Assembly: GCA_965116885.1 (NCBI GenBank)
Contig: OZ220741.1
Coordinates: 2,048,001-2,112,000, forward strand
Direction of reading: 5' to 3'
Source: Candidatus Latescibacterota bacterium
GTDB lineage: Bacteria > Latescibacterota > UBA2968
DNA length: 64,000 bases
The translations under genes were made by a program, and so were the position numbers. Below, piece by piece: positions 31,923-43,119 of the stretch. A model generated the notes under the pieces. The model saw only the letters and a list, made by a program, of their open reading frames with translations. It had not been told where the DNA came from and made no database searches. Within the stretch, counting starts at the first letter, position 1; the number at the start of each line of letters is the position of its first letter.

Positions 31923-33071
31923 CTATTCCACACCTCTCAGAGCTTGTTCAAAATCCGCGCATAAGTCCTCTGCAGCTTCAATGCCGACTGCTACGCGGAT
32001 CAGTCGTTCGGAGATTCCCGCGTCGCGTCGTTCCTCTTCGGTGAGTCCGGAGTGCGATGTTTGGACGGGGCGGGTGATGAGTGTTTCGATGCCGCCCAGG
32101 CTGGGTGCGGAGATTGGCAATTGTAGTTTCGATATTACTGCGTCAGCTACATGGCTGTCGCCAGCTATTTCAAAACTCAATACGCCACCACATCCGTTAA
32201 ATAGCTTTTTTGCACAGTTGTGTTGTGGATGGCTGGGTGAGCCAGGGTAATTTACGCGTTCTACTGCGGGATGTTTTTCCAGGAAAGCAGCCAATGCGTG
32301 TGCGTTTTCGTTTTGTTTTTCCACGCGCAGGACGAGTGTTTTCATGCCGCGCAATAGGAGAGAGCAGGCGTGTGTGTCCAGGCAGCCGCCCATGACGTTC
32401 AGGCGGTGCGTTATGCGGGTGATTAGTTCGCGCGATCCGATCGCGCAGCCAGCTACGATATCCGAATGTCCGTTCAGGTATTTTGTGCAGCTGTGCAAGG
32501 AGAGGTCAAAGCCGATTTGCAGGGGGCGGAAGTTTACCGGGGAGGCAAAGGTGTTGTCGATCATGGAGATGAGGTTGTGGGATTGGGCAAAGGCGACGAC
32601 GGATGGGAGGTCGGCGACTTCGAGGAGGGGGTTGCTCATGGTTTCGACATAGATGGCGCGGGTTTCGGGGCGGATGAGTTTTTCCCATTCATGTGGCGCG
32701 TTTCCGGATACGAAATCCACGTCGATTCCGAAGTCGGCGATGTCGCGTGCCAAAAAGACGCGCGTTCCGCCGTAGAGACAATTTTGTGCGAGGAGGTGGT
32801 CGCCTTTTTTTAGTACGGTTAATAGGGCAGTGGTTATCGCTGCCATGCCCGATGCGGTGACTACGGCGGCTTCTCCGCCCGCAATTTGCGCCAGTTTTTC
32901 ATGGACTACGGTGTGATTGGGGGTGTTGTTCAGGCGAAGATATTTTATGTCGTGATAACTGTCTTCACTGCTGTATGAAAATGTGGCGCTCTGAAATACG
33001 GGCAGCGCGACCGCGCCTTCGTATTTTTTTTCTTCTTCACCTGCGTGGATTAGTTGTGTTTCAAGGTTCAT
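31923..33071 (-). CDS. PLP-dependent Cys/Met metabolism enzyme (cystathionine gamma-synthase / methionine gamma-lyase family)
   Basis: 'SGMAAI', 'YGGT', 'DNTFASP', PLP Lys in 'HSCTKYLNGHSD', 'SLGGIETL'. Confidence 0.9.
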   Translation of the reverse strand: MNLETQLIHAGEEEKKYEGAVALPVFQSATFSYSSEDSYHDIKYLRLNNTPNHTVVHEKLAQIAGGEAAVVTASGMAAITTALLTVLKKGDHLLAQNCLYGGTRVFLARDIADFGIDVDFVSGNAPHEWEKLIRPETRAIYVETMSNPLLEVADLPSVVAFAQSHNLISMIDNTFASPVNFRPLQIGFDLSLHSCTKYLNGHSDIVAGCAIGSRELITRITHRLNVMGGCLDTHACSLLLRGMKTLVLRVEKQNENAHALAAFLEKHPAVERVNYPGSPSHPQHNCAKKLFNGCGGVLSFEIAGDSHVADAVISKLQLPISAPSLGGIETLITRPVQTSHSGLTEEERRDAGISERLIRVAVGIEAAEDLCADFEQALRGVE

Positions 33072-33089
33072 GAGTGGTTCCTCGGTTGT

Positions 33090-33116
33090 GTAGGGGCGGT
33101 GCCCCTGTGCCCGCCC
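33090..33116 (+). repeat. GTAG-type REP element
   Basis: GTAGGGGCGGTGCCCCTGTGCCCGCCC. Confidence 0.75.
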
Positions 33117-33238
33117 GCGCTAAGATAGGCGTTATGAATTATTGTCCTCATCCTTGCTCTATGATTATACATTTCGGTGTTGGGAGCAACCCAAAACACC
33201 ATTGCCTTATGCTCTCCGGGATAATTGCCCGTTTCCGC

Positions 33239-33267
33239 TTGACAGTATATGGCAGTTTTGATACTTT
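33239..33267 (+). promoter_or_regulatory. Putative sigma70 promoter for tRNA-Arg
   Basis: TTGACA-N17-TACTTT. Confidence 0.5.
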
Positions 33268-33320
33268 TATTCGTCTTACGACATTGTGTTGTCTCAAATA
33301 TACTTAAGTTCTTGATTTTA

Positions 33321-33397
33321 GCGGATGTAGCTCAACTGGATAGAGCACCTGACTACGGATCAGACGGTTCCGGGTTCGAATCCTGGCATCCGCACCA
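33321..33397 (+). tRNA. tRNA-Arg(ACG)
   Basis: Acceptor stem GCGGATG/CATCCGC, anticodon loop CT-ACG-GA, T-loop GTTCGAATC, encoded CCA. Confidence 0.95.
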
Positions 33398-33403
33398 GAT
33401 AAG

Positions 33404-33440
33404 AAAAAGGGGTTACATCGCAATGGTGTAACCCTTTTTT
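33404..33440 (+). terminator. Intrinsic terminator after tRNA-Arg
   Basis: AAAAAGGGGTTACATCgcaatGGTGTAACCCTTTTTT. Confidence 0.8.
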
Positions 33441-33463
33441 CAAAAATAAAGGCGGGGAGTTAT

Positions 33464-34714
33464 ATGACGCACTTTTTGAGACATAGCCTGTTTGCTCTGC
33501 TGGCTGTTTTTCTGTCTTTCCACCCGATTTTTGCTGCTGAAATTCCCCAGGGAGATCCCGGAGAGTTGGGGTTTTCTGCGGAACGCCTTGCGAAGATCCA
33601 ACCGACAATGCAAGCGCTCGTGGATTCTGGGAAGTTTGCAGGTGTTTTGACGTTGATCGCTCGAAAGGGCAAGATTGTGCATTTTGAGACTGCGGGTTTG
33701 CGGGATCGGGAATCGAATAAGCCGATGACTGAGGATACGCTTTTTCGCATTTATTCTATGACCAAACCGGTTACCAGTGTTGCTATTATGATGCTTTACG
33801 AAGCGGGCAAGCTGAAGCTGGACGATCCGGTGTCTAAGTTTATTCCCGAGTTTGCCGAGACAAAGGTTTATACGGGTGGCGGGACCGAGAGTCCTGTTCT
33901 GGTGCCGCTCGAGCGCGAGATAACGATTGCGAATTTGTTGTCGCATACGTCTGGTTTGACGTACGGCATTTTTGGGCAGACGTCCGTGGATACGCTTTAT
34001 CGGATTGCGAATCTGTATTCGTTCAATTCAAATGTCAAATATGCGCAGAAGGTGGCCCAGTTGCCTTTGCGTTTTCAGCCCGGGACGCGATGGCTCTATA
34101 GCGTAGCGACCGATATCCTCGGCAGTGTGGTTGAGGTCGCTTCCGGTATGTCTTTGGGCGCGTTTTTTACAGAGCGCATTTTTGTGCCTTTGGAGATGGT
34201 CGATACGAGTTTTTACGTGCCTGAGGACAAGCGCGATCGCCTGGCTACGGTGTATGGTAAGGACGATGAGGGTAATTTGGATGCGCGTAGCCTTCGGAGC
34301 AATACGCGGCGCAATGCACGGGAGTCCGGTGGTGGCGGGTTGGTGAGTACGGCGCGGGATTATCTCCGCTTTTCCCAGATGTTGCTCAATGGGGGCGAGT
34401 TGTACGGTACGCGCATTTTGAAGCCGGAGACGATCCAGCTTATGGCGAGCAATCATTTGCCAGAGACGGCGCGTTACCGACACCGCCAGCGCAAGAGCGA
34501 TGGTTTTGGCTATGGTTTTTCTGTGATTGTGGATGAGACGGAGACGGCGTGGGAGGATAGGAATGGGACGTATTACTGGTCGGGTATTGCCAAGACGCAT
34601 TTCTGGATTGATCCGCAGAATGAGATGGTTTCTATGGTGTGGACCCAGTTGCGCGGGTCGGGCAATATTACGCGGGCTTTCCAGCCTCTGGTTTACGAAG
34701 CACTTGTAGAGTAG
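33464..34714 (+). CDS. Secreted serine hydrolase, beta-lactamase/esterase family VIII-like
   Basis: Signal peptide; SxxK 'SMTK', 'LLSHTSGL', 'FQPG.RWLYS', 'GGGLVST'. Confidence 0.9.
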   Translation: MTHFLRHSLFALLAVFLSFHPIFAAEIPQGDPGELGFSAERLAKIQPTMQALVDSGKFAGVLTLIARKGKIVHFETAGLRDRESNKPMTEDTLFRIYSMTKPVTSVAIMMLYEAGKLKLDDPVSKFIPEFAETKVYTGGGTESPVLVPLEREITIANLLSHTSGLTYGIFGQTSVDTLYRIANLYSFNSNVKYAQKVAQLPLRFQPGTRWLYSVATDILGSVVEVASGMSLGAFFTERIFVPLEMVDTSFYVPEDKRDRLATVYGKDDEGNLDARSLRSNTRRNARESGGGGLVSTARDYLRFSQMLLNGGELYGTRILKPETIQLMASNHLPETARYRHRQRKSDGFGYGFSVIVDETETAWEDRNGTYYWSGIAKTHFWIDPQNEMVSMVWTQLRGSGNITRAFQPLVYEALVE

Positions 34715-34720
34715 GGAGGC

Positions 34721-34749
34721 TTGACAAAAGTATCGAACTTTATTAGGTT
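34721..34749 (+). promoter_or_regulatory. Putative sigma70 promoter for tRNA-Glu
   Basis: TTGACA-N17-TAGGTT, 20 nt upstream of the tRNA. Confidence 0.6.
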
Positions 34750-34769
34750 GTCGCCATCTTGTTGTGAGT

Positions 34770-34845
34770 GACCCCGTCGTTCAGTGGCCTAGGACACCAG
34801 ACTCTCACTCTGGAGACGGGGGTTCGACTCCCCTCGGGGTCACCA
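34770..34845 (+). tRNA. tRNA-Glu(CTC)
   Basis: Acceptor stem GACCCCG/CGGGGTC, anticodon stem CCAGA/TCTGG with loop CT-CTC-AC, T-loop GTTCGACTC, CCA end. Confidence 0.95.
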
Positions 34846-34870
34846 AAAATATATTGTTTTTCAGATATCA

Positions 34871-34911
34871 AAAAGGTCGTGAGGAATAAACCCTCACGAC
34901 CTTTTGTTTTT
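34871..34911 (+). terminator. tRNA-Glu terminator; also the left copy of the island-bounding repeat
   Basis: AAAAGGTCGTGAGG-aataaac-CCTCACGACCTTTT followed by a T tract. Confidence 0.85.
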
Positions 34912-34962
34912 CGTTTTGATTTTTTGGGGCTGGCGGGGAAAATACTGGCGGATGTGTGATAT

Positions 34963-35328
34963 TTATGTATGGTGTTTTTGATAAAAGTCTTTTACTGTTG
35001 GTGGTGTCTCATCTGATTGGCAAAGACCCTGTCGAATTTTGACCAATAGTTCCTGTGATATAGGCGGTGCGTTGCTACAGTCACGTAGAATGATTCTGCT
35101 TCTCCATTCTTCAATTAGACAAGCATCCTCATAGTAGATAATTGATTTTTTACTGATATTTGGATGGTCGTCAGGCGAGAGTATGCATGTTTCATCTGAT
35201 CCTCTACGCCATGAAGTTACATTCACCATTATTGTTTGTGGTGGATTGCCTACACACTCTGTTAAAAACAAATATAAGTGCCCACCGCCCAGATCATCGA
35301 GCCATACGCATCTTCCCGCTAATAACAT
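34963..35328 (-). CDS. Putative toxin (possibly PemK/MazF-like fold) downstream of the Panacea antitoxin
   Basis: Starts 2 nt after the DUF4065 stop; 'HLYLFL...MVNVTS...DETCIL..DDHP.I...SIIYY' pattern; fold assignment is inference. Confidence 0.55.
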   Translation of the reverse strand: MLLAGRCVWLDDLGGGHLYLFLTECVGNPPQTIMVNVTSWRRGSDETCILSPDDHPNISKKSIIYYEDACLIEEWRSRIILRDCSNAPPISQELLVKIRQGLCQSDETPPTVKDFYQKHHT

Positions 35329-35330
35329 AT

Positions 35331-35957
35331 TTATCTCGTATTATCATTCTCCATATTTCTAAGCATATTTTCAAACTTTGCTTTTGCATCAAATTCTTGC
35401 CTGATTGTTATTAGATCCTCGTCAGACCATCCCGTAGCTTTAAGCAAGGTATTCCAATCTATGGGATTAGATGAACCCCCTGGATCATCAAACTCTGGTA
35501 GAGAGTGCAGATGGTTCTTTAATTGCCCAAAGGATTTATTTCCAAATTCCTTAAATACATCATTTATCAGATCAAGTTGTGCTTGTGATAGTTCATCACT
35601 GCTTATATCGTCTTTAATTAGTTTAATAATATACCCTTGTGGTCTGGAAAAATATTGAGACCAGTATTCGCCTTCCCAGGGTTTGCAAACAAGATCGTAT
35701 GTATGACTTGGCGTTGGTCCAAATGGTAGATTATACGGACGGTCAAAAGTCACGGGACGACCACGACGCTCCAAAGAGGTTCTATCAATGAGGTATATCA
35801 ATTTGACAAGTTTATACACACTAATTTGACCGCCAGAATAATGTGCAAGTAAAGCAGCAACTTGCGTTGTCCTGCGCTCATTAAACTCAGGAATATCTAA
35901 TAGACTTGTATCAACCATGATAGTATCAGACATTTTCAAGTCCTTTGAACGTGTCAT
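35331..35957 (-). CDS. Panacea-domain (DUF4065/SocA-like) antitoxin; start may be 35933 or 35918
   Basis: 'KLVKLIYLIDR..L...GRPVTFD..YNLPFGP.PS..YD', 'ELS......I..V...FG......L....H.LPE'. Confidence 0.8.
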   Translation of the reverse strand: MTRSKDLKMSDTIMVDTSLLDIPEFNERRTTQVAALLAHYSGGQISVYKLVKLIYLIDRTSLERRGRPVTFDRPYNLPFGPTPSHTYDLVCKPWEGEYWSQYFSRPQGYIIKLIKDDISSDELSQAQLDLINDVFKEFGNKSFGQLKNHLHSLPEFDDPGGSSNPIDWNTLLKATGWSDEDLITIRQEFDAKAKFENMLRNMENDNTR

Positions 35958-36065
35958 AAAATATTACGACACATATTTCGTTGTATTATAGCTCAAATAT
36001 ACAAAGAAAGCAATTTCCCCAAAATCTGAAATGATCCAGCTCAAAATACGAAACTCTGCATGAGA

Positions 36066-37334
36066 TCACTCCGGAAGATGGACATCTTCCTCGCCATCGT
36101 CTTTAATTCCCATGTAGTGTAGCACTTCGTCTATGACATCATCAAATTCCACTTGCTTTGCAAGATTGACCAATTTGTCATAAGTAATTTTGTCGCGTCG
36201 ATGGGCTTCGATAGCCATACCCGTGAAATTGAGCGCAAAATTACTAAAGGGGTGTTCTCGCTCTTTTTTTTCTATGTTCAGACGTCGTGCAATTCGCCGT
36301 GCTTTCTCTTTTTCTTGGAAAAGTTGGTCAAATAATTCTTCGGAAAGAAATTTGGTGTTTCTCAATCGGTACAAGGCGGCTTCAAAGCTAATTCCAAAGT
36401 ATGCACAGAACTTGACGACGTCGTAAAGCGTAATGATTTGCCAGGATGCCAGGCGGCGGTAATGTCCTACAAGAGGATCAGGATCAGGTTGCTCGGTATA
36501 GGCCAACAGTCTTTCTCTACTGGCGGACGCCCCTTTATCGATATTTTTTAGAAATTGACTCACGCCTTCTTCTGGCATGAGAAACGCCGCTGCAAAAGCA
36601 TTCGCACGCACTTCGAATAAATCGCGGTCATTTGAAATTTTACTGATGGCACTGACTTTATCACGGTCAAGCAATATGTGACCGTATTCATGGGCTATGG
36701 TAAATGCGACTCGGGCTTTCGCTCTATCAAGATGCACTTCGTTGATGAAGATGCACAGCTGTATCTCCGCTTCGACCATAAAAATACCCGATATCTGATC
36801 GTCCAAACGGATTTCAATAACCGGTATCCCCTGAGATTCCACCAATTCAGCCATGTCGCGTATGGGATTAATGCCCAACCTGAGACGACTTCGTTCCGCC
36901 TCTGCTGCATGTTCACCCATTTGAATGGCTTCCCAAACATTTTTGGGTTCACCATAGTCATATACAGGCGGTAGGTTCCGTTCTTGATCTAGTTCTAAAA
37001 GTTTTTGCAGATTTCCATATTCTCTCAAGAGTTCGTGTGCGTCCCTCAAGGATTTATAGAAGATATGATTTTGTAAGAGGTCTGGATGAGCGCGAAATAG
37101 AACAGCCAGCGCGTCTTTCTCGACAGGCTTTTCTTCTACGAAACTGGCCATATCTCGTCCATAAAGACGCGATAGACGCATGAGTTCAAGTGAACTGACC
37201 GCCCGGTGTCCCGACTCGATTTGAGAAATTGCAACACGGGTGAGCGCAACGTGATCAGCAACCTGCTGTTGGGTCAACCCGATTGCTTCACGCGCACTTT
37301 TTAATCGCTGTCCCAACTCTCGCTGCGTCAACAT
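36066..37334 (-). CDS. XRE-family HTH fused to ImmA/IrrE (peptidase M78) metallopeptidase
   Basis: GAGGAG RBS; HTH 'LGQRLKSARE..GLTQQQVA......RVAISQIESG.R'; HExxH 'FTIAHEYGH'; 'EVRANAFAAAFLMP'. Confidence 0.9.
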   Translation of the reverse strand: MLTQRELGQRLKSAREAIGLTQQQVADHVALTRVAISQIESGHRAVSSLELMRLSRLYGRDMASFVEEKPVEKDALAVLFRAHPDLLQNHIFYKSLRDAHELLREYGNLQKLLELDQERNLPPVYDYGEPKNVWEAIQMGEHAAEAERSRLRLGINPIRDMAELVESQGIPVIEIRLDDQISGIFMVEAEIQLCIFINEVHLDRAKARVAFTIAHEYGHILLDRDKVSAISKISNDRDLFEVRANAFAAAFLMPEEGVSQFLKNIDKGASASRERLLAYTEQPDPDPLVGHYRRLASWQIITLYDVVKFCAYFGISFEAALYRLRNTKFLSEELFDQLFQEKEKARRIARRLNIEKKEREHPFSNFALNFTGMAIEAHRRDKITYDKLVNLAKQVEFDDVIDEVLHYMGIKDDGEEDVHLPE

Positions 37335-37344
37335 TGTATTATCT

Positions 37345-37423
37345 CCTCTACATGAGTAACTATCGCCACTGGTCAATTGGAACCTGAAGATACCCAATTG
37401 TCCCCTCTACATGTAGTAACTAT
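37345..37423. repeat. 19/20-bp direct repeat duplicating the pAgo 3' end, flanking a small inverted repeat
   Basis: cctctacatg-agtaactat (37345-37363) vs cctctacatgtagtaactat (37404-37423); CAATTGG...CCAATTG between them. Confidence 0.7.
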
Positions 37424-38837
37424 AACTAATCTGAGGTTCAGGATCTTCCTGTGGATCAAGATATTTCATGATTTCTCCTACTTTCCTGGCACATTGTATT
37501 GTAATCGGATATTTTCCATCAAATTGAGTATTGTTCCAATTCATTTTAGTCAACCCAAGAATCTCTTTACAGATAATATTTGGTGACTCGTCCGACTCAA
37601 TCAATCTAATTTCAATCGGCTGAGGAATATAAAGACCAGGATAAGTTTTGTAGTGTTTAACAGAACCTCGTGTGTAAAGTATATGATTGCTTCTATCGAA
37701 CTCAAGATGAGTTCCTCTACCTGGAGGGTATGCACCTTCGCGAAATAGTCTCATTTTGGTATCTAAAATTGTGACAAAATCAACTGCATTTATACGCATT
37801 TTGTCTGTAGCCTGTCTAAATCCGTCTAATTCAGCTTCATTAAAAATTGATGACTTATGGAGAACTAATCTCGCAGGGGAATTTTCAAGTGCAATCTCAT
37901 ATTCTTTGAGAGCTCTCAACAGCAATTCATAGGCTTGTTCTGAACTTAAATGAGGCATTCTATCTTCCTTACCAATATCGACAGATGTACCTCTCAAGAT
38001 TACATTGTGACCGAGTTCATCGAATATTTGTGCGAGACTTGTATTGAGCGTTTTTTTATCTCGGCTTCGGTAGAAACCGATTCCAGCAAAGCAAATAGAT
38101 GGTCTATTTATATCCGGTACCAATCTCCAAGGGACGGTCTGATTAGCCTTGTAATAAAGTGCTGTACAGAAATTCCAGGCTCTTGTAGCATCGTCTTGTT
38201 GCCCCTTGGGATTTTGTTCCAAAGAAAGTTCTCTTGCTAATTGAAGAGGTTTACCTAAATGCATGGTTTTTGCTTTTAATGCTCTTCTAAAATTGGACTC
38301 AATCTGATCTGCATTAGAATAATCCTCTATTTCTTCCTCAATGGGTTGTCTTTTTTGATTAGCTATTTCATCATAAAGCTCATTTGGAATAACACATACT
38401 ATGACATCAACATTTCGGTTCTGTGCAAGAAATCTTACTTGTTCAGAGTAAATTTCAACAGCCTTATCGATTCTTTCTTCCCAATCAGAGATATTTCTAA
38501 TTTCTCGCATTGTTGAATTACGCAGATTACGGATAATTTCATCCTCGATTCTGAGTTTTGCTTTAAATCCTGATTCTGTATTGAAACCACAAAACGGCAA
38601 AAATAACAATGGTTGCTTGTTATTTGGCTTTGCTGGAATGTACTTTGAACATCTCTCTAACCAATTATGCAATTTTTCTAAACAATCGCTTGTGCCCACA
38701 CCCCCAACAAGAATATGATCTCGCCGTGCCCTCAGTTTAGAGTCATATACATCATATTCAGCTATACCTGCCCGCGGGCAGATATGGGTGTTTCGTCCAA
38801 ATTCAAGATCGGGTTCGTGAATATTGTTTAGTCTCAT
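37407..38837 (-). CDS. Short prokaryotic Argonaute (MID-PIWI only, catalytically inactive)
   Basis: 476 aa; 'EPDLEFG', MID 'NFRRALKA...PLQL', 'QDDATRAWNFCTALYYKA...PWRL', PIWI 'CFAGIGFY', 'VLHKSS', 'RGT', 'LYTRG', 'LTKMNWN', 'PITI'; catalytic Asp positions replaced by G and K. Confidence 0.92.
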   Translation of the reverse strand: MRLNNIHEPDLEFGRNTHICPRAGIAEYDVYDSKLRARRDHILVGGVGTSDCLEKLHNWLERCSKYIPAKPNNKQPLLFLPFCGFNTESGFKAKLRIEDEIIRNLRNSTMREIRNISDWEERIDKAVEIYSEQVRFLAQNRNVDVIVCVIPNELYDEIANQKRQPIEEEIEDYSNADQIESNFRRALKAKTMHLGKPLQLARELSLEQNPKGQQDDATRAWNFCTALYYKANQTVPWRLVPDINRPSICFAGIGFYRSRDKKTLNTSLAQIFDELGHNVILRGTSVDIGKEDRMPHLSSEQAYELLLRALKEYEIALENSPARLVLHKSSIFNEAELDGFRQATDKMRINAVDFVTILDTKMRLFREGAYPPGRGTHLEFDRSNHILYTRGSVKHYKTYPGLYIPQPIEIRLIESDESPNIICKEILGLTKMNWNNTQFDGKYPITIQCARKVGEIMKYLDPQEDPEPQISYSYYM

Positions 38838-40303
38838 ATTTCTAATGATAAGGGTAAAGGATCTTGGGAATCTTTCATCCTCCCTCGGTCTTGTTTAGTT
38901 TCTCCCGTCAGCCATTCATTATCATCAATCGATAATTCCATATCAAAATTCAGGAGATCTCCAAAAGACAAAAAAGGATAAGTATAATTAGGCCTGAATA
39001 GGTTTGGAGGTCTATCATGTTTTATTATATGGACAATTGCTTTGAGATGGTTGAAAACATGTTCATTCCTTTCTCTTTTTTTTAAATAATCCACCCTATC
39101 TGCCATATAGTAAGATTTTCTATAAGTATCCCTACTTATAAACCATTCAGGTTTAATCAAAATAAACCACCGACCACCAAATCGTTTATATTGAATGAGG
39201 AATGATAGATGTTTGCAACTTAGAATCTCGTGGGGAGAATCTCTTTTCATTGTTCGTTTATAAACTTCTCGGCTATTTGTTTTTTTACCCTGCCATTGTT
39301 CCCGCCTAATTGGATGGCCATCAACTTCAAAAAATATAAAGAGCTTATCTTCATGTTGCCACTGAATCTGTTTGTGATACAATTTTTGTTGCATACATCT
39401 ACCTAAAAGAGAGACAAAAACTCTTTCGTGATCTATATCTTTATCATAAAATTCTTCGGTGGCTATTATTCTCGTTGTGCTGGGGTTAATAAGGCTTGTA
39501 AGAGGTAGTTTGTCATCATTGAGATCATGAAATGTGATGAGTTTATTCTTATGAGAAACCCAGTCTAAACTGAAATTTAACCCTTTTTGTCTCAAGGCCT
39601 CTCTTAATATGTCTCTCGTCGAACTGTTCTTTTTCAATTCGCTACTATTCTCTATAATAACATTTCTGGCGATAGCTAAATCAGAAATGTACAGTTTTTC
39701 AGGAAAGAAAATTTCCAATAGATTCAGATAAAGAGTTTCTGATTGTGGTTGGGAGAGAATAGCCTGATTAAAAATAGGTTTGCTTTCTTCGCCAAAATGC
39801 TGCTCAAGTATGTTTTCTACTCTGCGTAATTTTTCCAAAGGAAATTCTGAGATTTTTTTAAGTAAGTCTCGATAATCACGTATGTCATTTTTCTTATCAA
39901 AAGAGAATTTATCTTGTATTATTCTGCCAAATTCTCGTCCTTGATATGTTCTTTGTTTTTCTGTCAAAATATAGATGATTAGATGATCGTATTTTTCGTA
40001 CAGTTTACGATCAACAAATGTTTTTAAAGTATCCTTGATTTTTTTGCTACCAGATGTTGACGTAATTTGATACGCGATTCTCGTTTTATCGTCGGCCAAG
40101 TCTATCCCTGGAAAATTAGGACTTTCAGATACATTTAGATTTCTCAAATCTGAATGTCCATAGATTTCAGAAAACAACGGAATTAATACATTTTCAGATA
40201 CAATATTGATATCTGTCTTACTCATTGCTGTTGCGCCTTTGACCTGAGCCACGAATCTTGACATCAATTCATTGATTCTATCTTGAGATTTTTTTAAATT
40301 CAT
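38834..40303 (-). CDS. SMEK-domain + APAZ-domain protein (short pAgo partner/effector)
   Basis: N-terminal SMEK-like 'DINIVSEN...LF..IYG..L.NLN....NFPGIDLAD...IAYQITS....KIKDTL..F'; C-terminal APAZ-like 'ETLYLNLL....PEKLY', 'HLSF........WFILIKPEWFIS.D', 'KKRERNEHV.NHL'; ATGA overlap with pAgo. Confidence 0.85.
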   Translation of the reverse strand: MNLKKSQDRINELMSRFVAQVKGATAMSKTDINIVSENVLIPLFSEIYGHSDLRNLNVSESPNFPGIDLADDKTRIAYQITSTSGSKKIKDTLKTFVDRKLYEKYDHLIIYILTEKQRTYQGREFGRIIQDKFSFDKKNDIRDYRDLLKKISEFPLEKLRRVENILEQHFGEESKPIFNQAILSQPQSETLYLNLLEIFFPEKLYISDLAIARNVIIENSSELKKNSSTRDILREALRQKGLNFSLDWVSHKNKLITFHDLNDDKLPLTSLINPSTTRIIATEEFYDKDIDHERVFVSLLGRCMQQKLYHKQIQWQHEDKLFIFFEVDGHPIRREQWQGKKTNSREVYKRTMKRDSPHEILSCKHLSFLIQYKRFGGRWFILIKPEWFISRDTYRKSYYMADRVDYLKKRERNEHVFNHLKAIVHIIKHDRPPNLFRPNYTYPFLSFGDLLNFDMELSIDDNEWLTGETKQDRGRMKDSQDPLPLSLEI

Positions 40304-40366
40304 TTTTTATTACCTAATAGGTTTCTATTTTACGTTGAATCTCTAAGCATGGGTTTTAATCATCCA

Positions 40367-40395
40367 AATATATCAATTTCTATCTTTGATGTCAA
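40367..40395 (-). promoter_or_regulatory. Near-consensus sigma70 promoter of the SMEK-APAZ/pAgo operon
   Basis: Minus strand TTGACA-N17-TATATT with extended -10 TGn, 63 nt upstream of ATG 40303. Confidence 0.7.
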
Positions 40396-40471
40396 TATAT
40401 GACTTTAAAATTTCAATTTTCCAAAATATAAAATAAGCGACAATCTTCAAATATGACTGTTTTACAATAGG

Positions 40472-40501
40472 ATATGGAGATTAAAAATTTAATCTCCATA
40501 T
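40472..40501. promoter_or_regulatory. Perfect 14-bp inverted repeat (candidate operator)
   Basis: ATATGGAGATTAAA-aa-TTTAATCTCCATAT. Confidence 0.5.
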
Positions 40502-40636
40502 TAGATTTGGGCAAATTTTAACGTATTTGTCAATGCTGTTTAACCATGTTTAAGCCTACAGTCTCGCAGAATCGATAGTGCTTTGGCGACTTCCTTCCCT
40601 TTTTGTTTGATGATATTGAAGCAGATCTTCGGGAGG

Positions 40637-40708
40637 CGACTCCCCTTGATATCGTTTTTTTGATATGAAAAAGGTCGTGGAATTTATTCCTCACGACCTT
40701 TTGTTTTT
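40637..40708. repeat. Right island boundary (attR-like remnant) with duplicated terminator
   Basis: CGACTCCCCT equals tRNA 34825-34834; 40649-40679 matches 34851-34881 at 27/31; 40689-40708 is identical to 34892-34911. Confidence 0.8.
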
Positions 40709-40735
40709 TTAGGCGACCAACATGTTTGGTGTGCT

Positions 40736-41740
40736 TCAGACGACTGCTGCTTCATCTATGGAAAAAAGATTTTGTTCAGAGTCAAGCGTTGCCTGGATGC
40801 CATTTGGAAGAATCATTTGAGGACTCGTATGCCCGATATCTACTTGTGTGAGAATGGGAAAATTAAATGCCGATGTATAATAACCGATCAATCCTTGCAG
40901 TAACTCTTCCTGGTCTTGAGATAGGTTGTTTACTTTTCCTATGATCAGACCAGAAATTTCTCTAAAAAGACCGATCTGCTGGCATTGTGCAAGGGCTTCC
41001 TCGGCATACATAAGAACCGTGTTTCCCATATTGACCTCTTCCAGATAAAGAATTTTACCGTGAAATGAAGGCCAAAATGGAGTACCATTCAATATCGGCA
41101 GGGTATGGAGATTGCCACCTATAAGAGGTCCTTGCGCTCTGCCACCTTTGAGCCAATGCCAACCAGCATTATTTTTCATTTTGCGCGGGCTGTTTTCATT
41201 GGGTGCATCATCTGTCCAGGTCTCCGGTGCTTCCAATGGTCCCGGGGCGGTTAGCGTAAACAGGACATCTTTTATACTTTCGAGTGTATAACTCAAGGGT
41301 TTCGGAAATTCGCTAAGACCGTTGAGCAGGGTTGGCCCGTGGAAAGTGACCATATTGAGACGGGCGTAGATGCCGAGTAGCAGGGCTGTATTCGCGCTGT
41401 ATCCCATCAAGATTTTGGGGGAACGCGCAATCAAATCCCAGTCGAGCAAGGGAAGGAGGGCATTGGTACCAGATCCTCCTGAGAGACAAAAAATCGCTTT
41501 GATGTCCGGGTCAGCAAATAGGTCGTGGAGATCATTGACACGCAATTGGGGGGCTGGATTCAAATGTTCGCGTTGATGGCGTGCGTTATTCGCTAATTGA
41601 ACTCTCAAACCGAGATCCTCAATAGCTGCTTGGGCACTGGAAAGCCAATTGTTAGCAAAAGAAAAAAATGAGGCAGCGGGCGAGGCAATCCCTACAGTAT
41701 CACCTGGTTTTAATCTCGGTGGTTTGATTATATTATTCAT
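40736..41740 (-). CDS. Peptidase S66 (LD-carboxypeptidase / MccF-like)
   Basis: 'KPPRLKPGDTVGIASPA', 'GYS', 'TFHGP', 'GGNL', 'LEE', 'DIGHT.P...LP.G'. Confidence 0.9.
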   Translation of the reverse strand: MNNIIKPPRLKPGDTVGIASPAASFFSFANNWLSSAQAAIEDLGLRVQLANNARHQREHLNPAPQLRVNDLHDLFADPDIKAIFCLSGGSGTNALLPLLDWDLIARSPKILMGYSANTALLLGIYARLNMVTFHGPTLLNGLSEFPKPLSYTLESIKDVLFTLTAPGPLEAPETWTDDAPNENSPRKMKNNAGWHWLKGGRAQGPLIGGNLHTLPILNGTPFWPSFHGKILYLEEVNMGNTVLMYAEEALAQCQQIGLFREISGLIIGKVNNLSQDQEELLQGLIGYYTSAFNFPILTQVDIGHTSPQMILPNGIQATLDSEQNLFSIDEAAVV

Positions 41741-41756
41741 ACTCTGATATATCTGA

Positions 41757-41996
41757 TTAAAGCCTATCCTGTTCATCCGGCGGATCGACATCTGCTGCCT
41801 TTGCCATTGCAGATAGAAATTTCTCTTTGCCCCCGTGATTCCCACGCGCTTCAAGATATGTTTCGGTCGCAATAGCTGATGCTTTCTCGGCCACTGCCAG
41901 CATGATAAACTGTTCGAATGACATGCCTTCACGCTCGACAATATCACGGACTGTTGCGTGAAGCGAATCTGGTATGGTAATACTGATGGTTGTCAT
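41757..41996 (-). CDS. Ribbon-helix-helix (CopG/HicB-like) antitoxin-like protein, orphan
   Basis: 'TISITIPDSLH..V.....REG.S..QFI.LAVAEK'. Confidence 0.75.
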   Translation of the reverse strand: MTTISITIPDSLHATVRDIVEREGMSFEQFIMLAVAEKASAIATETYLEARGNHGGKEKFLSAMAKAADVDPPDEQDRL

Positions 41997-42099
41997 AGTT
42001 GTTGTTCCATTTCTTTTTTGAAGATAAGATATTGCGTATATATTTTATGGGTGTGCATAAATTAGAAATCACACAACAATAGCCAGGACAGAAAGCCAT

Positions 42100-42356
42100 C
42101 AGCCAAAACCATCACGCACAGCGCGTGAGACCGTTTCGCAGCGGATATTTTTATGGCATTCCAACTGTGCAGGCCACCGCATGATGTTCAGCCACTTGAG
42201 CAGTTTGCGCTGTGCAAGCCTCCCGGCGTTTGAGGGCGGCATTTTTGAACTGGCCTGAGGAACAGCCAGTTGTACCCCGCTCGCCTCCTTTTTTTTGCTG
42301 CTGAAAAAAAGGAGGTCGCCGCACGCCGCAGGCATGGCGTAGCCACACGCATGAAA
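42100..42356. repeat. Possible structured non-coding element (multiple hairpins)
   Basis: AACTGGC..GCCAGTT, CCTCCTTTTTTT..AAAAAAAGGAGG and ACGCC..GGCGT hairpins in a GC-rich patch within AT-rich intergenic DNA. Confidence 0.35.
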
Positions 42357-42480
42357 AGAAAAATAGTAAAAAAACTCTATACGTCGTTGCACCACAACAA
42401 ATGAATTATCCACACCCTTCATATATTTAGCGCCTGAAAATAATACGCTATGTATATGTTTTTTGCAATAGGGTCGCGGT

Positions 42481-43119
42481 ATGAATAAGAAAAACGATGT
42501 CAGACCCATCGTGATTGGTGTTTCAGGAGGATCTGCCGCGGGCAAGACGACTTTTACGGATATGTTGGCCGATAGGCTCGCAGATTTTGGACCCGTCGTG
42601 CTCAATCAGGACAACTATTTCCGCGATTGGTCAGCGCTGCCAGAAGACGAGCGCGAGATCGAGCGGACGGCAAACCATCCGCGGGCTGTATTGTGGGAGC
42701 ATTTAATCGCGCATGTGAAATGTCTGCGCGAGGGACAGGCGATTGAAATGCCACCGCCCGGTACGCGCGCTTTTCGGCGGGGGGATGATCCCCAAAAGGT
42801 CGTGCCTGAGAGACTAATTATTGTGGAGGGGCACTTGATTTTTTCGCAAGAGACTCTGAGGTCTCTATTGGATATCAAGCTGTTTTTGGATGTGGATACA
42901 CACGAGCGGGTGCTCAGGCGCATGTTGCGGAATACGTCGAGTGGGATGTCGCTGGAAGATGCGGTGGCATGGTATCGTCGGGACGTTGTGCCCAATTATC
43001 GCGTCTATACAGAGCCGACGAGAGAGTACGCGGATTTGATCGTGCCGTTTGAAGGGGATGTGCAAGTAGCAGTAGATGTTGTGGCAAATGGCATACGGAG
43101 GATGATTCAACATAGATAG
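42481..43119 (+). CDS. udk: Uridine kinase family protein
   Basis: 'IGVSGGSAAGKTT', 'QDNYF', 'NHP.A', 'IVEG', 'EPTREYADLIVP'. Confidence 0.8.
   Translation: MNKKNDVRPIVIGVSGGSAAGKTTFTDMLADRLADFGPVVLNQDNYFRDWSALPEDEREIERTANHPRAVLWEHLIAHVKCLREGQAIEMPPPGTRAFRRGDDPQKVVPERLIIVEGHLIFSQETLRSLLDIKLFLDVDTHERVLRRMLRNTSSGMSLEDAVAWYRRDVVPNYRVYTEPTREYADLIVPFEGDVQVAVDVVANGIRRMIQHR

What the first reader, a model, noticed from the sequence alone, without database searches (positions are those of the whole stretch)
37407..40303. Short prokaryotic Argonaute with a SMEK-APAZ effector: candidate uncharacterised defence system
Seen: a two-gene operon with ATGA overlap. It pairs a 489-aa protein (N-terminal SMEK-like domain, C-terminal APAZ-like domain) with a 476-aa MID-PIWI Argonaute whose catalytic positions are substituted (GIGFY, HKSS). 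Established: inactive short pAgos form heterodimers with effector-APAZ proteins and trigger the effector on guide-directed target recognition (TIR in SPARTA, SIR2 in SPARSA, nuclease in SPARDA). Inference: the SMEK domain has a restriction-endonuclease-like pattern (E..N, IDLAD, YQITS, a Q-x-T variant of (D/E)xK), suggesting a guide-activated collateral DNase causing abortive infection or plasmid clearance. I know of no experimental characterisation of a SMEK-APAZ pAgo; this needs a literature and database check.
Basis: partly seen in the sequence, partly recalled or inferred. Interest (0 to 1): 0.92.

Follow-up and report, generated by a model that had tools for sequence, protein, structure and literature searches.

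The report
Known-type short Argonaute with SMEK nuclease partner
This is a real two-gene bacterial defence module, a short Argonaute paired with a SMEK(Mrr-like)-APAZ nuclease protein, but it belongs to a family that is already catalogued and has been tested in vitro, so it is an ordinary new member.

Summary
Two minus-strand genes overlap by ATGA: 38834-40303 (489 aa) and 37407-38837 (476 aa). The first has an N-terminal SMEK domain and a C-terminal APAZ domain. The second is a MID-PIWI short Argonaute most similar to the Argonautes of nuclease-type systems (SPARDA, SPARHA).

The novelty claim fails. PADLOC already holds full-length models for both proteins. A SPARDA preprint counts 175 SMEK-bearing APAZ proteins in RefSeq and calls them Mrr-like effectors of clade S2B. 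Three papers I read cite Kim et al. 2020, which showed that the Kordia jejudonensis SMEK-APAZ/short pAgo pair is a heterodimeric guided nuclease. A later preprint names that system SPARMA. A solved structure of the Kordia "Mrr domain" matches residues 4-171 here at E=2.4e-29.

The most likely mechanism is RNA-guided recognition of invader DNA that switches on the SMEK nuclease, giving collateral DNA degradation. This is inferred by homology only.

The pair sits in a roughly 5.8 kb low-GC islet beside tRNA-Glu, flanked by direct repeats. The adjacent HTH-M78 gene is not a conserved partner.

One side observation is new: this SMEK domain groups with SMEK-NACHT proteins of Poribacteria, which suggests the effector domain has been exchanged between scaffolds.

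The parts
38834..40303 (-). SMEK(Mrr-like)-APAZ effector gene, 489 aa (P0001)
   Evidence: ORF. Pfam SMEK_N E=1e-45. PADLOC Aga_REase-PNTD1-PNTD2 over 1-473, E=4.8e-147. AlphaFold2 model with mean pLDDT 86.5.
39779..40303 (-). SMEK domain (residues 1-175), the predicted nuclease effector. Conserved candidate active-site residues are E37, D68, D71, Q79, T81 and K88.
   Evidence: PDB 26bh 'Mrr domain from Kordia jejudonensis Mrr-APAZ pAgo' aligns to residues 4-171 at E=2.4e-29, with these residues identical. Invariant columns in 51 sequences. Secondary-structure order: helix 32-48, strand 69-71, strand 76-81, helix 86-98, strand 107-112.
38837..39751 (-). APAZ (N-L1-L2-like) domain, residues about 185-489. 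A low-confidence linker at 180-183 separates it from SMEK.
   Evidence: Sequence matches to the APAZ part of 9qbp_A, 9qbl_A, 9qbq_A, 9jsb_D and 9om4_A. Foldseek: 79 matches at E<=1e-3; every one of the rows displayed (ranks up to 50) is an effector-APAZ chain of SPARDA, SPARHA or SPARTA; best E=1.2e-17; TM-score normalised to target 0.85 for 9qcc_I.
37407..38837 (-). Short prokaryotic Argonaute (MID-PIWI), 476 aa (P0002). It has an RK-type MID pocket (R184, K188, Q199, K230) and a PIWI domain without an intact catalytic tetrad (G-I-G at 252-254, HKSS at 327-330, R451).
   Evidence: PADLOC pAgo_I 1-476, E=7.2e-181. PDB 9qbp_B E=5.3e-80, 9jsb_A 9.8e-70, 9om4_B 3.2e-67. Invariant columns in 37 sequences. 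MID alignment to SPARDA Argonautes. Tetrad mapping to TtAgo.
38834..38837 (-). ATGA stop/start overlap, suggesting translational coupling
   Evidence: Sequence. The same effector-then-pAgo order with overlapping genes occurs in 3 of 3 plasmid loci inspected.
40367..40395 (-). Promoter-like site (TTGACA, 17-nt spacer, TATATT; 11 of 12 matches, TG extension) about 64 nt upstream of the SMEK-APAZ start
   Evidence: Consensus scan. It is the best of 26 sites, against 19.3 expected by chance, so on its own this is weak evidence.
34851..34911 (+). Left copy of the direct repeat bounding the low-GC islet. It lies immediately 3' of tRNA-Glu(CTC) at 34770-34845 and contains a terminator-like hairpin.
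40649..40708 (+). Right copy of the direct repeat (87-100% identical in its segments, spacing 5798 nt). It is preceded by a short partial match to the tRNA-Glu 3' end.

Best explanation
This is a two-gene short-Argonaute defence system of the Mrr-like(SMEK)-APAZ type, in clade S2B. It is the same kind as the Kordia jejudonensis KjAgo system, which one preprint calls SPARMA. Three things are shown here by sequence and fold: the domain architecture, the homology to the Kordia SMEK domain and to SPARDA/SPARHA APAZ and Argonaute chains, and the conservation of candidate catalytic and guide-binding residues. The rest is inferred by homology. The two proteins would form a 1:1 heterodimer in which APAZ supplies the N-L1-L2 lobe that the short pAgo lacks. 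The RK-type MID pocket would load small guide RNAs. Pairing with complementary invader DNA (plasmid or phage) would cause a conformational change and probably higher-order assembly, bringing SMEK domains together. The SMEK PD-(D/E)xK-like nuclease (E37, D68, Q79-x-T81, K88) would then degrade DNA indiscriminately, stopping the invader at the cost of the host cell. The module arrived by horizontal transfer as part of a roughly 5.8 kb low-GC islet next to tRNA-Glu.
For: Architecture. Homology of the SMEK domain to the solved Kordia 'Mrr domain': E=2.4e-29 over residues 4-171, with E37, D68, D71, Q79, T81 and K88 identical. APAZ by sequence and by fold (model pLDDT 86.5). The pAgo is closest to SPARDA and SPARHA Argonautes. 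R184, K188, Q199 and K230 are invariant in 37 of 37 family members and align with the R..K motif region of the NbaAgo, XauAgo and EaeAgo chains; the SPARDA preprint describes NbaAgo as having an RK motif. Inactive PIWI: hhalign places TtAgo D546 on K328 and D660 on R451; MAFFT places D546 on S329; HKSS is invariant; the TtAgo D/E/D/D residues were verified. The gene pair is conserved across phyla: Methylibium, Nostoc and Parabacteroides plasmids, with the Methylibium pAgo 58% identical. The family is large: 216 proteins at E<=1e-3, and all 120 listed rows carry PF21941. Literature passages: KjAgo with SMEK-APAZ is a heterodimeric guided nuclease with weak collateral activity; SPARDA and SPARHA are activated by target-induced filaments; truncated Kordia dimer models resembled the SPARDA filament interfaces. 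Horizontal transfer: GC is 33.4% and 37.3% for the two genes against 51.6% for the window, and the islet is flanked by repeats.
Against: Nothing was tested biochemically for this locus. The primary Kordia paper could not be read, so its findings are known only through citing papers, and these differ: one says 'RNA-guided target DNA cleavage', another 'weak collateral nuclease activity'. The nuclease fold of the SMEK domain could not be verified independently. The domain-only model was poor (pLDDT 59.6) and its fold search gave 0 matches at E<=1e-3. hhalign against E. coli Mrr found nothing (probability 0.2%). The motif is Q-x-T rather than (D/E/Q)-x-K, so the catalytic lysine assignment (K88) is a guess. 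The TtAgo alignments are low-confidence (hhalign probability 3.7%), and D478 was not placed consistently. Heterodimer formation and SMEK self-association were not modelled.
Confidence: 0.75

Rival explanations
1. The complex is a guide-directed, target-specific nuclease. The SMEK domain would simply replace the lost PIWI slicer activity and cut the recognised target strand. There would be no collateral degradation and no abortive infection.
For: [quoted passage not shown] Ryazansky et al. 2018 proposed the same idea.
Against: Every nuclease-APAZ system studied in depth (Tmu, Nba and Xau SPARDA, and SPARHA) shows collateral rather than target-restricted cleavage. PMC12205087 describes the Kordia activity as collateral. 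The SMEK domain is joined to APAZ by a low-confidence linker (residues 180-183, pLDDT below 50), as in SPARDA, where the preprint models the nuclease outside the nucleic-acid cleft.
Confidence: 0.12
2. The functional unit is three genes. The downstream HTH_3-Peptidase_M78 protein (36066-37334) would act as a CapH/CapP-like or ImmA/ImmR-like stress-responsive regulator of the pAgo operon, possibly through the perfect palindrome at 40472-40501.
For: The gene is on the same strand, about 70 nt downstream of the pAgo stop. Domain hits are HTH_3 with Peptidase_M78, PADLOC RmrA at E=4e-32 and capP at E=2.6e-15. There is a palindrome upstream of the promoter-like site.
Against: No HTH-M78 gene lies next to the pair in 3 of 3 plasmid loci inspected. 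Its close relatives (73-99% identity) lie on contigs whose lengths match none of the contigs that carry listed SMEK-APAZ relatives. This comparison uses longest-contig lengths only and covers the 120 listed of 216 SMEK-APAZ hits. Its GC content (45.7%) differs from that of the pAgo pair (33-37%).
Confidence: 0.1
3. The locus is an inactive remnant of a decayed island and no longer provides defence.
For: No integrase or other mobility gene was found within the repeats.
Against: Both ORFs are full length and align end to end with family members. The query keeps the family-invariant residue at every invariant column of both alignments.
Confidence: 0.03

Closest known systems
Kordia jejudonensis KjAgo with SMEK(Mrr)-APAZ ('SPARMA'; Kim, Jung and Lim 2020, known here only through citing papers; PDB 26bh for the Mrr domain)
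   Same: The effector domain family is the same: residues 4-171 align at E=2.4e-29 with all conserved polar residues identical. The two-gene architecture of effector-APAZ plus short pAgo in clade S2B is the same as the papers describe it.
   Different: It comes from a different host. The full-length Kordia proteins were not available, so only the nuclease domain could be compared. Nothing experimental is known for this ortholog.
SPARDA (DREN/DUF4365-APAZ plus short pAgo; Nba, Xau, Eae and Tmu systems)
   Same: The Argonaute is closely related (E=5.3e-80 to 9.8e-70). The APAZ fold matches (E=1e-17 to 1e-13). The MID region is RK-type. The likely logic is the same: RNA guide, DNA target, collateral nuclease.
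   Different: The effector domain is SMEK, not DUF4365. Matches to DREN-APAZ chains cover only residues 227-470, and Pfam finds only SMEK_N. The SPARDA preprint says the two nuclease domains have different topologies, Mrr/AspBHI-like against Hjc-like. Some authors nevertheless use SPARDA as an umbrella name that includes SMEK.
SPARHA (HNH-APAZ plus short pAgo)
   Same: The Argonaute (E=3.2e-67) and the APAZ domain (E=3.8e-4 by sequence; 9.6e-12 by fold) are related. It is also a nuclease effector in clade S2B.
   Different: The effector is an HNH nuclease rather than a PD-(D/E)xK-like one.
SPARTA and SPARSA (TIR- or SIR2-APAZ plus short pAgo)
   Same: The overall design is the same, and the APAZ fold is recognisable (E=1e-11 to 1e-8).
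   Different: These are NADase effectors. The Argonautes are more distant (E=1.9e-32 to 1.2e-15).
SMEK-NACHT/STAND NTPases (for example Poribacteria MAG loci L001-L003)
   Same: The N-terminal SMEK domain is 65-69% identical to this one. It groups with this one in trees.
   Different: The sensor part is a NACHT/STAND NTPase of about 1556 aa rather than APAZ plus pAgo. There is no Argonaute partner.

Membership tests
Mrr-like(SMEK)-APAZ / short pAgo system (clade S2B, 'SPARMA'; PADLOC pAgo class I) | A short pAgo made of MID and PIWI only, with no N or PAZ domains | tested here: met
   The protein is 476 aa. It aligns end to end with PADLOC pAgo_I (1-476 against 1-455 of 455) and with solved short pAgos (6-461 against 8-471 of 484).
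Mrr-like(SMEK)-APAZ / short pAgo system (clade S2B, 'SPARMA'; PADLOC pAgo class I) | A PIWI domain lacking the complete DEDX catalytic tetrad | tested here: met
   TtAgo D546 aligns to K328 (hhalign) or to S329 (MAFFT). Both residues are invariant in 37 of 37 sequences. D660 aligns to R451 or to a gap. D478 was not placed consistently, and E512 may correspond to D292. Both alignments are low-confidence (hhalign probability 3.7%). The same residues occur in SPARDA Argonautes, and the preprint describes NbaAgo as lacking the tetrad. The TtAgo residue numbers were recalled and then checked to be D, E, D, D.
Mrr-like(SMEK)-APAZ / short pAgo system (clade S2B, 'SPARMA'; PADLOC pAgo class I) | A partner protein with a C-terminal APAZ (N-L1-L2-like) domain | tested here: met
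   PADLOC PNTD1-PNTD2 models. Sequence matches to APAZ chains. Foldseek E=1.2e-17, with TM-score normalised to target up to 0.85.
Mrr-like(SMEK)-APAZ / short pAgo system (clade S2B, 'SPARMA'; PADLOC pAgo class I) | An N-terminal SMEK/Mrr-like effector domain homologous to that of the Kordia system | tested here: met
   Pfam SMEK_N E=1e-45. PDB 26bh E=2.4e-29.
Mrr-like(SMEK)-APAZ / short pAgo system (clade S2B, 'SPARMA'; PADLOC pAgo class I) | Effector-APAZ gene immediately upstream of the pAgo gene, on the same strand | tested here: met
   ATGA overlap. The same order with overlapping genes is seen in 3 of 3 plasmid loci inspected.
Mrr-like(SMEK)-APAZ / short pAgo system (clade S2B, 'SPARMA'; PADLOC pAgo class I) | The two proteins form a heterodimer | not tested
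   No heterodimer model was made. The single complex job was aimed at SMEK self-association and was never accepted. The heterodimer is inferred from homology only.
Mrr-like(SMEK)-APAZ / short pAgo system (clade S2B, 'SPARMA'; PADLOC pAgo class I) | Nuclease activity that depends on guide and target | not testable with these tools
   This needs biochemistry.
SPARDA in the strict sense (DREN/DUF4365-APAZ) | A DUF4365 (DREN) nuclease domain at the N-terminus of the APAZ protein | tested here: not met
   Pfam finds only SMEK_N, even at E<=10 on the isolated domain. PDB matches to DREN-APAZ chains start at residue 227.
Mrr restriction endonuclease family (sequence level) | Detectable sequence or profile similarity to the Mrr catalytic domain | tested here: not met
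   hhalign of the 51-sequence family profile against E. coli EcoKMrr gave probability 0.2% and aligned only 15 columns, in the APAZ part. There was no Mrr Pfam hit at E<=10. 'Mrr-like' is the term used by the PDB depositors and the papers and was not reproduced here.
PD-(D/E)xK nuclease fold | The alpha-beta-beta-beta-alpha-beta core with acidic residues and a lysine at the canonical positions | tested here: inconclusive
   The order of elements and conserved residues in the good full-length model is compatible: E37 on a helix, D68 before strand 69-71, Q79 and T81 on strand 76-81, K88 at the start of helix 86-98. The domain-only model was poor (pLDDT 59.6). Its Foldseek search gave 0 hits at E<=1e-3. 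The weak top hits (E=0.1 to 2) included EcoO109I, EcoT38I, BamHI, XPF/Hef, cap-snatching endonucleases and Avs4. That the canonical core has this order is recalled knowledge.

The most novel reading that the evidence does not exclude
The SMEK nuclease domain of this pAgo system and the SMEK domain of Poribacteria NACHT/STAND NTPases share a recent common origin. They are 65-69% identical, against a median of 53% to the other SMEK-APAZ proteins sampled, and they form one clade with SH-like support of 92-99. The same nuclease module would therefore have been swapped between an Argonaute-based nucleic-acid sensor and a STAND sensor within one lineage. If so, SMEK would be a portable domain activated by oligomerisation. 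The in vivo role and the activation structure of the SMEK/Mrr-type pAgo system, which I did not find described in the held literature, could then be studied with this ortholog.
Probability: 0.4. Interest if true: 0.35.

Novelty: new member of a known kind. Interest (0 to 1): 0.22.

Why it matters
This adds one more ortholog to a catalogued defence family, so it matters little on its own. Two points keep it from being worthless. First, in the library I could search, the SMEK/Mrr-type short pAgo system has only brief in vitro characterisation (one 2020 paper, known here through citations), one PDB entry of the isolated domain, and dimer modelling in one preprint. I found no paper describing in vivo defence or an activated structure. 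Subscription journals are not held, and the 26bh deposit suggests such work exists or is under way. Second, the SMEK domain is a widely reused N-terminal effector: 2530 representative proteins match at E<=1e-3, and 64 of the best 150 are at least 800 aa long. The close tie between this copy and SMEK-NACHT proteins illustrates effector shuffling between defence sensors.

Tried and rejected
1. Complex modelling. There is therefore no result for or against binding. The heterodimer was not modelled either.

2. Independent test of the SMEK fold. A domain-only AlphaFold model built from a 4-sequence alignment was poor (pLDDT 59.6). Its Foldseek search gave 0 matches at E<=1e-3, so the test is inconclusive.

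3. Sequence link to Mrr. hhalign against E. coli Mrr was negative.

4. Tetrad mapping. hhalign to TtAgo covered only the last two tetrad positions, at probability 3.7%. MAFFT gave a register shifted by one residue and placed D478 implausibly. Only the absence of an acidic residue around HKSS is solid.

5. Genomic context of close relatives. As a result, the contexts of the 86-88% identical relatives (P0005-P0008) stayed unchecked.

6. The HTH-M78 gene as a third component. It is rejected as a conserved partner. See the rival explanation for the caveats.

7. Phage origin. There was no tblastn match among 50,697 phage records.

8. RNA elements. Rfam found only the two tRNAs in 33000-42500.

9. 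Literature. 'Mrr-APAZ' returned 0 papers. The Kim 2020 paper is not held. Ryazansky 2018 contains 0 occurrences of 'SMEK'. No supplements were opened.

10. Host identity. It was not determined. The only hint is the Poribacteria affinity of the SMEK domain, while the named SMEK-APAZ relatives are mostly cyanobacterial.


Full report
Observation. The junction reads GAA ATA TGA overlapping ATG AGA CTA, so the ATGA overlap is real. The quoted motifs are present: IDLAD at 67-71 and YQITS at 78-82 in P0001, and GIGFY at 252-256 and HKSS at 327-330 in P0002. The longest stop-free run in this AT-rich stretch is 495 codons, against a maximum of 191 in 500 shuffles.

What the two proteins are. P0001 carries Pfam SMEK_N at residues 9-151 (E=1e-45) and NCBIfam SMEK_N. 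Over its whole length it matches the PADLOC model Aga_REase-PNTD1-PNTD2 (1-473, E=4.8e-147). Its C-terminal part (227-470) matches the APAZ portions of the solved DREN-APAZ chains 9qbp_A, 9qbl_A, 9qbq_A and 9jsb_D, and of the HNH-APAZ chain 9om4_A (E=1.1e-11 to 3.8e-4).

An AlphaFold2 model built from a 51-sequence alignment has mean pLDDT 86.5, with a low-confidence linker at residues 180-183. Foldseek against the PDB returned 79 matches at E<=1e-3. Every row displayed (ranks up to 50) is the effector-APAZ chain of a SPARDA, SPARHA or SPARTA complex, with best E=1.2e-17 and a TM-score normalised to target of 0.85 for 9qcc_I. The C-terminal domain is therefore APAZ.

P0002 has no Pfam hit. It matches PADLOC pAgo_I end to end (E=7.2e-181) and the Argonaute chains of solved short-pAgo complexes. 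SPARDA Argonautes score E=5.3e-80, 2.8e-77 and 9.8e-70. SPARHA scores 3.2e-67. SPARTA scores 1.9e-32 to 3.8e-26. A further Piwi-domain chain scores 1.2e-15.

Functional residues. In 51 SMEK-APAZ proteins, the invariant SMEK-domain residues are E37, N57, P65, D68, D71, Q79 and K88, and T81 is at least 90% conserved. In the model, E37 lies on helix 32-48, D68 just before strand 69-71, Q79 and T81 on strand 76-81, and K88 at the start of helix 86-98. That order is compatible with a PD-(D/E)xK-type core in which the usual lysine is replaced by T81 and possibly supplied by K88. The shape of the canonical core is recalled knowledge, and the K88 role is my inference.

In 37 pAgo relatives, R184, R185, K188, Q199 and K230 in the MID region are invariant, as is H327-K328-S329-S330. 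The R184...K188 segment aligns with the same segment of the Eae, Xau and Nba SPARDA Argonautes. The SPARDA preprint describes NbaAgo as having an RK motif.

To test the inactive-PIWI claim, I fetched the Thermus thermophilus Argonaute from plasmid pTT27. I confirmed that positions 478, 512, 546 and 660 are D, E, D, D (the numbers were recalled). hhalign places D546 on K328 and D660 on R451, but with only 3.7% probability. MAFFT places D546 on S329, E512 on D292, D660 at a gap beside R451, and D478 implausibly on N244. The mapping is therefore rough. There is no acidic residue in the invariant HKSS segment, and the same residues occur in SPARDA Argonautes, where the preprint says NbaAgo lacks the tetrad.

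What is already known.

[quoted passage not shown] It lists SMEK among the SPARDA nuclease domains (passages).
- Preprint 10.1101/2025.04.08.647717 calls the Kordia system SPARMA. It reports that truncated dimer models of most of the selected systems, which included the Kordia one, resembled SPARDA filament interfaces (passages and section 17).
- PMC12738770 lists Mrr-like effectors among the 'tentative nucleases' of S2B (passages).
- The PDB entry 26bh, 'the Mrr domain from Kordia jejudonensis Mrr-APAZ pAgo', aligns to residues 4-171 of P0001 at E=2.4e-29, with E37, D68, D71, Q79, T81 and K88 all identical.

I could not read the 2020 paper itself. I found no paper in the held library describing in vivo defence or an activated structure for the SMEK/Mrr type. 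Subscription journals are mostly absent from that library.

How common it is. The word-indexed search found 216 proteins at E<=1e-3. All 120 listed rows carry PF21941 at 41-100% identity. The named ones come from Leptolyngbya, Symploca, Pseudanabaena, Acidobacteriota, Anaerolineae and Bacteroidetes. The pAgo search gave 3590 hits at E<=1e-3 among 8000 scored candidates, and the 120 listed are 55-100% identical.

In the plasmid collection, 42 records matched and 6 covered at least 80% of the query. I inspected three of them: Methylibium RPME01, Nostoc carneum plasmid2 and a Parabacteroides plasmid. In all three, an overlapping ORF of 469-477 aa follows the APAZ gene. The Methylibium ORF is 58% identical to P0002, although the corresponding SMEK-APAZ proteins are only 34.6% identical. 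No phage record matched.

Surroundings. GC content falls from about 52% to 31-46% between roughly 34.8 and 41.2 kb. SMEK-APAZ is 33.4% GC and the pAgo 37.3%, against 51.6% for the whole window. The low-GC stretch begins immediately after tRNA-Glu(CTC) at 34770-34845. It is bracketed by a direct repeat, 34851-34911 and 40649-40708, spaced 5798 nt apart and 87-100% identical in its segments. The repeat contains a terminator-like hairpin, and its right copy is preceded by a short partial match to the tRNA 3' end. This looks like a small integrated islet, and I saw no integrase in it.

Besides the pAgo pair, the islet holds three more minus-strand ORFs. One is an HTH_3-Peptidase_M78 fusion at 36066-37334. 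One carries a SocA_Panacea domain at 35331-35957. The last is a 121-aa ORF with no family at 34963-35328.

The HTH-M78 gene is not a conserved partner. It is absent from the three plasmid loci. Its many close relatives (73-99% identity) lie on contigs whose lengths match none of the contigs that carry listed SMEK-APAZ relatives. This is an indirect comparison of longest-contig lengths, limited to listed rows. A promoter-like site (11 of 12 matches) lies at 40395-40367, and a perfect 14-nt palindrome lies at 40472-40501. Both are unverified.

Mechanism. The architecture and conserved residues are shown. The rest is inferred from the Kordia, SPARDA and SPARHA work. A 1:1 heterodimer would load small RNA guides through the RK-type MID pocket. 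It would recognise complementary invader DNA and probably assemble into higher-order structures that bring SMEK domains together. Non-specific DNA degradation would follow, with an abortive-infection outcome. In NbaSPARDA, filament formation tetramerises the nuclease domain (abstract).

The main rival is target-restricted cleavage, which one citing paper's wording about the Kordia system allows. My attempts to confirm the nuclease fold independently were inconclusive. I could not detect sequence similarity to E. coli Mrr, so 'Mrr-like' rests on the depositors and the papers. No complex model was obtained, because the job was never accepted (see Tried and rejected).

Side observation. The isolated SMEK domain matches 2530 representative proteins at E<=1e-3, 1151 at E<=1e-10 and 171 at E<=1e-30. 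In all 150 best hits the match lies at or near the N-terminus. Of those 150, 64 are at least 800 aa long and only 19 fall in the 440-530 aa range of SMEK-APAZ proteins. My own APAZ profile hits 12 of the 146 newly returned representatives.

The only loci found in the species-representative genome set were three Poribacteria MAGs, in which a SMEK domain 65-69% identical to this one heads a NACHT/STAND protein of about 1556 aa. That is closer than the SMEK domains of the other sampled SMEK-APAZ proteins, which have a median identity of 53% and a maximum of 66% outside the near-identical relative P0005.

In a FastTree of 197 SMEK domains, P0001 and P0005 fall in an 8-row clade with six non-APAZ rows (SH-like support 99). 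The APAZ label needs 32 changes on that tree, at least 15 of them forced by well-supported branches. IQ-TREE quick runs on 45 rows recovered the same clade with SH-aLRT 92 and 99; the careful search did not finish. This suggests repeated exchange of the SMEK effector between sensor scaffolds, including a recent event involving this locus. The trees rest on 175 columns and are unrooted, and several of the 'other' rows may be gene fragments.

Verdict. This is a real, intact and well-annotatable defence module, and a new member of a known kind rather than an uncharacterised system.

Noticed in passing
window 34770-34911 and 40633-40708: A low-GC islet of about 5.8 kb sits immediately 3' of tRNA-Glu(CTC). 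It is bracketed by a direct repeat of about 60 nt that contains a terminator-like hairpin. The right copy is preceded by a short partial match to the tRNA 3' end. No integrase was seen inside the repeats.
   Followed up: partly
window 36066-37334 (-): An HTH_3-Peptidase_M78 (ImmA/IrrE-type) fusion gene lies about 70 nt downstream of the pAgo. It hits PADLOC RmrA and capP models. It has many close relatives (73-99% identity) elsewhere, apparently without the pAgo pair, and its GC content (45.7%) is higher than that of the pAgo genes.
   Followed up: partly
window 34963-35957 (-): A 208-aa SocA_Panacea-domain ORF is followed, after a 2-nt gap, by a 121-aa ORF with no family hit. This could be a PanA-type toxin-antitoxin pair.
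   Followed up: no
L001 10001-14671; L002 and L003 from 10001: Poribacteria MAGs encode SMEK-NACHT/STAND proteins of about 1556 aa. Their SMEK domain is 65-69% identical to this one and groups with it in trees, which points to exchange of the effector domain between pAgo and STAND sensors.
   Followed up: partly
L001 6134-9232 and L004 1064-5911: In two unrelated loci, a Type ISP restriction-modification enzyme gene lies directly upstream of a SMEK-bearing gene. In Poribacteria the SMEK gene is SMEK-NACHT; on the Methylibium plasmid it is SMEK-APAZ followed by a pAgo. This may be a defence-island coincidence or a real linkage.
   Followed up: no
L005 5671-8339 (Nostoc carneum plasmid2): An APAZ protein whose C-terminal part is 51% identical to P0001 carries a different N-terminal region with no Pfam hit (412 aa in total). 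An overlapping pAgo-sized ORF of 477 aa follows it. This is a possible uncharacterised effector variant.
   Followed up: partly
window 37338-37354 and 37397-37413: A 17-nt direct repeat (88% identical, 59 nt apart) spans the pAgo stop codon and the region just upstream of the HTH-M78 start. It may be a recombination scar or chance.
   Followed up: no
window 40472-40501: A perfect 14-nt inverted repeat with a 2-nt spacer lies about 80 nt upstream of the promoter-like site of the SMEK-APAZ gene. It is a candidate operator.
   Followed up: no
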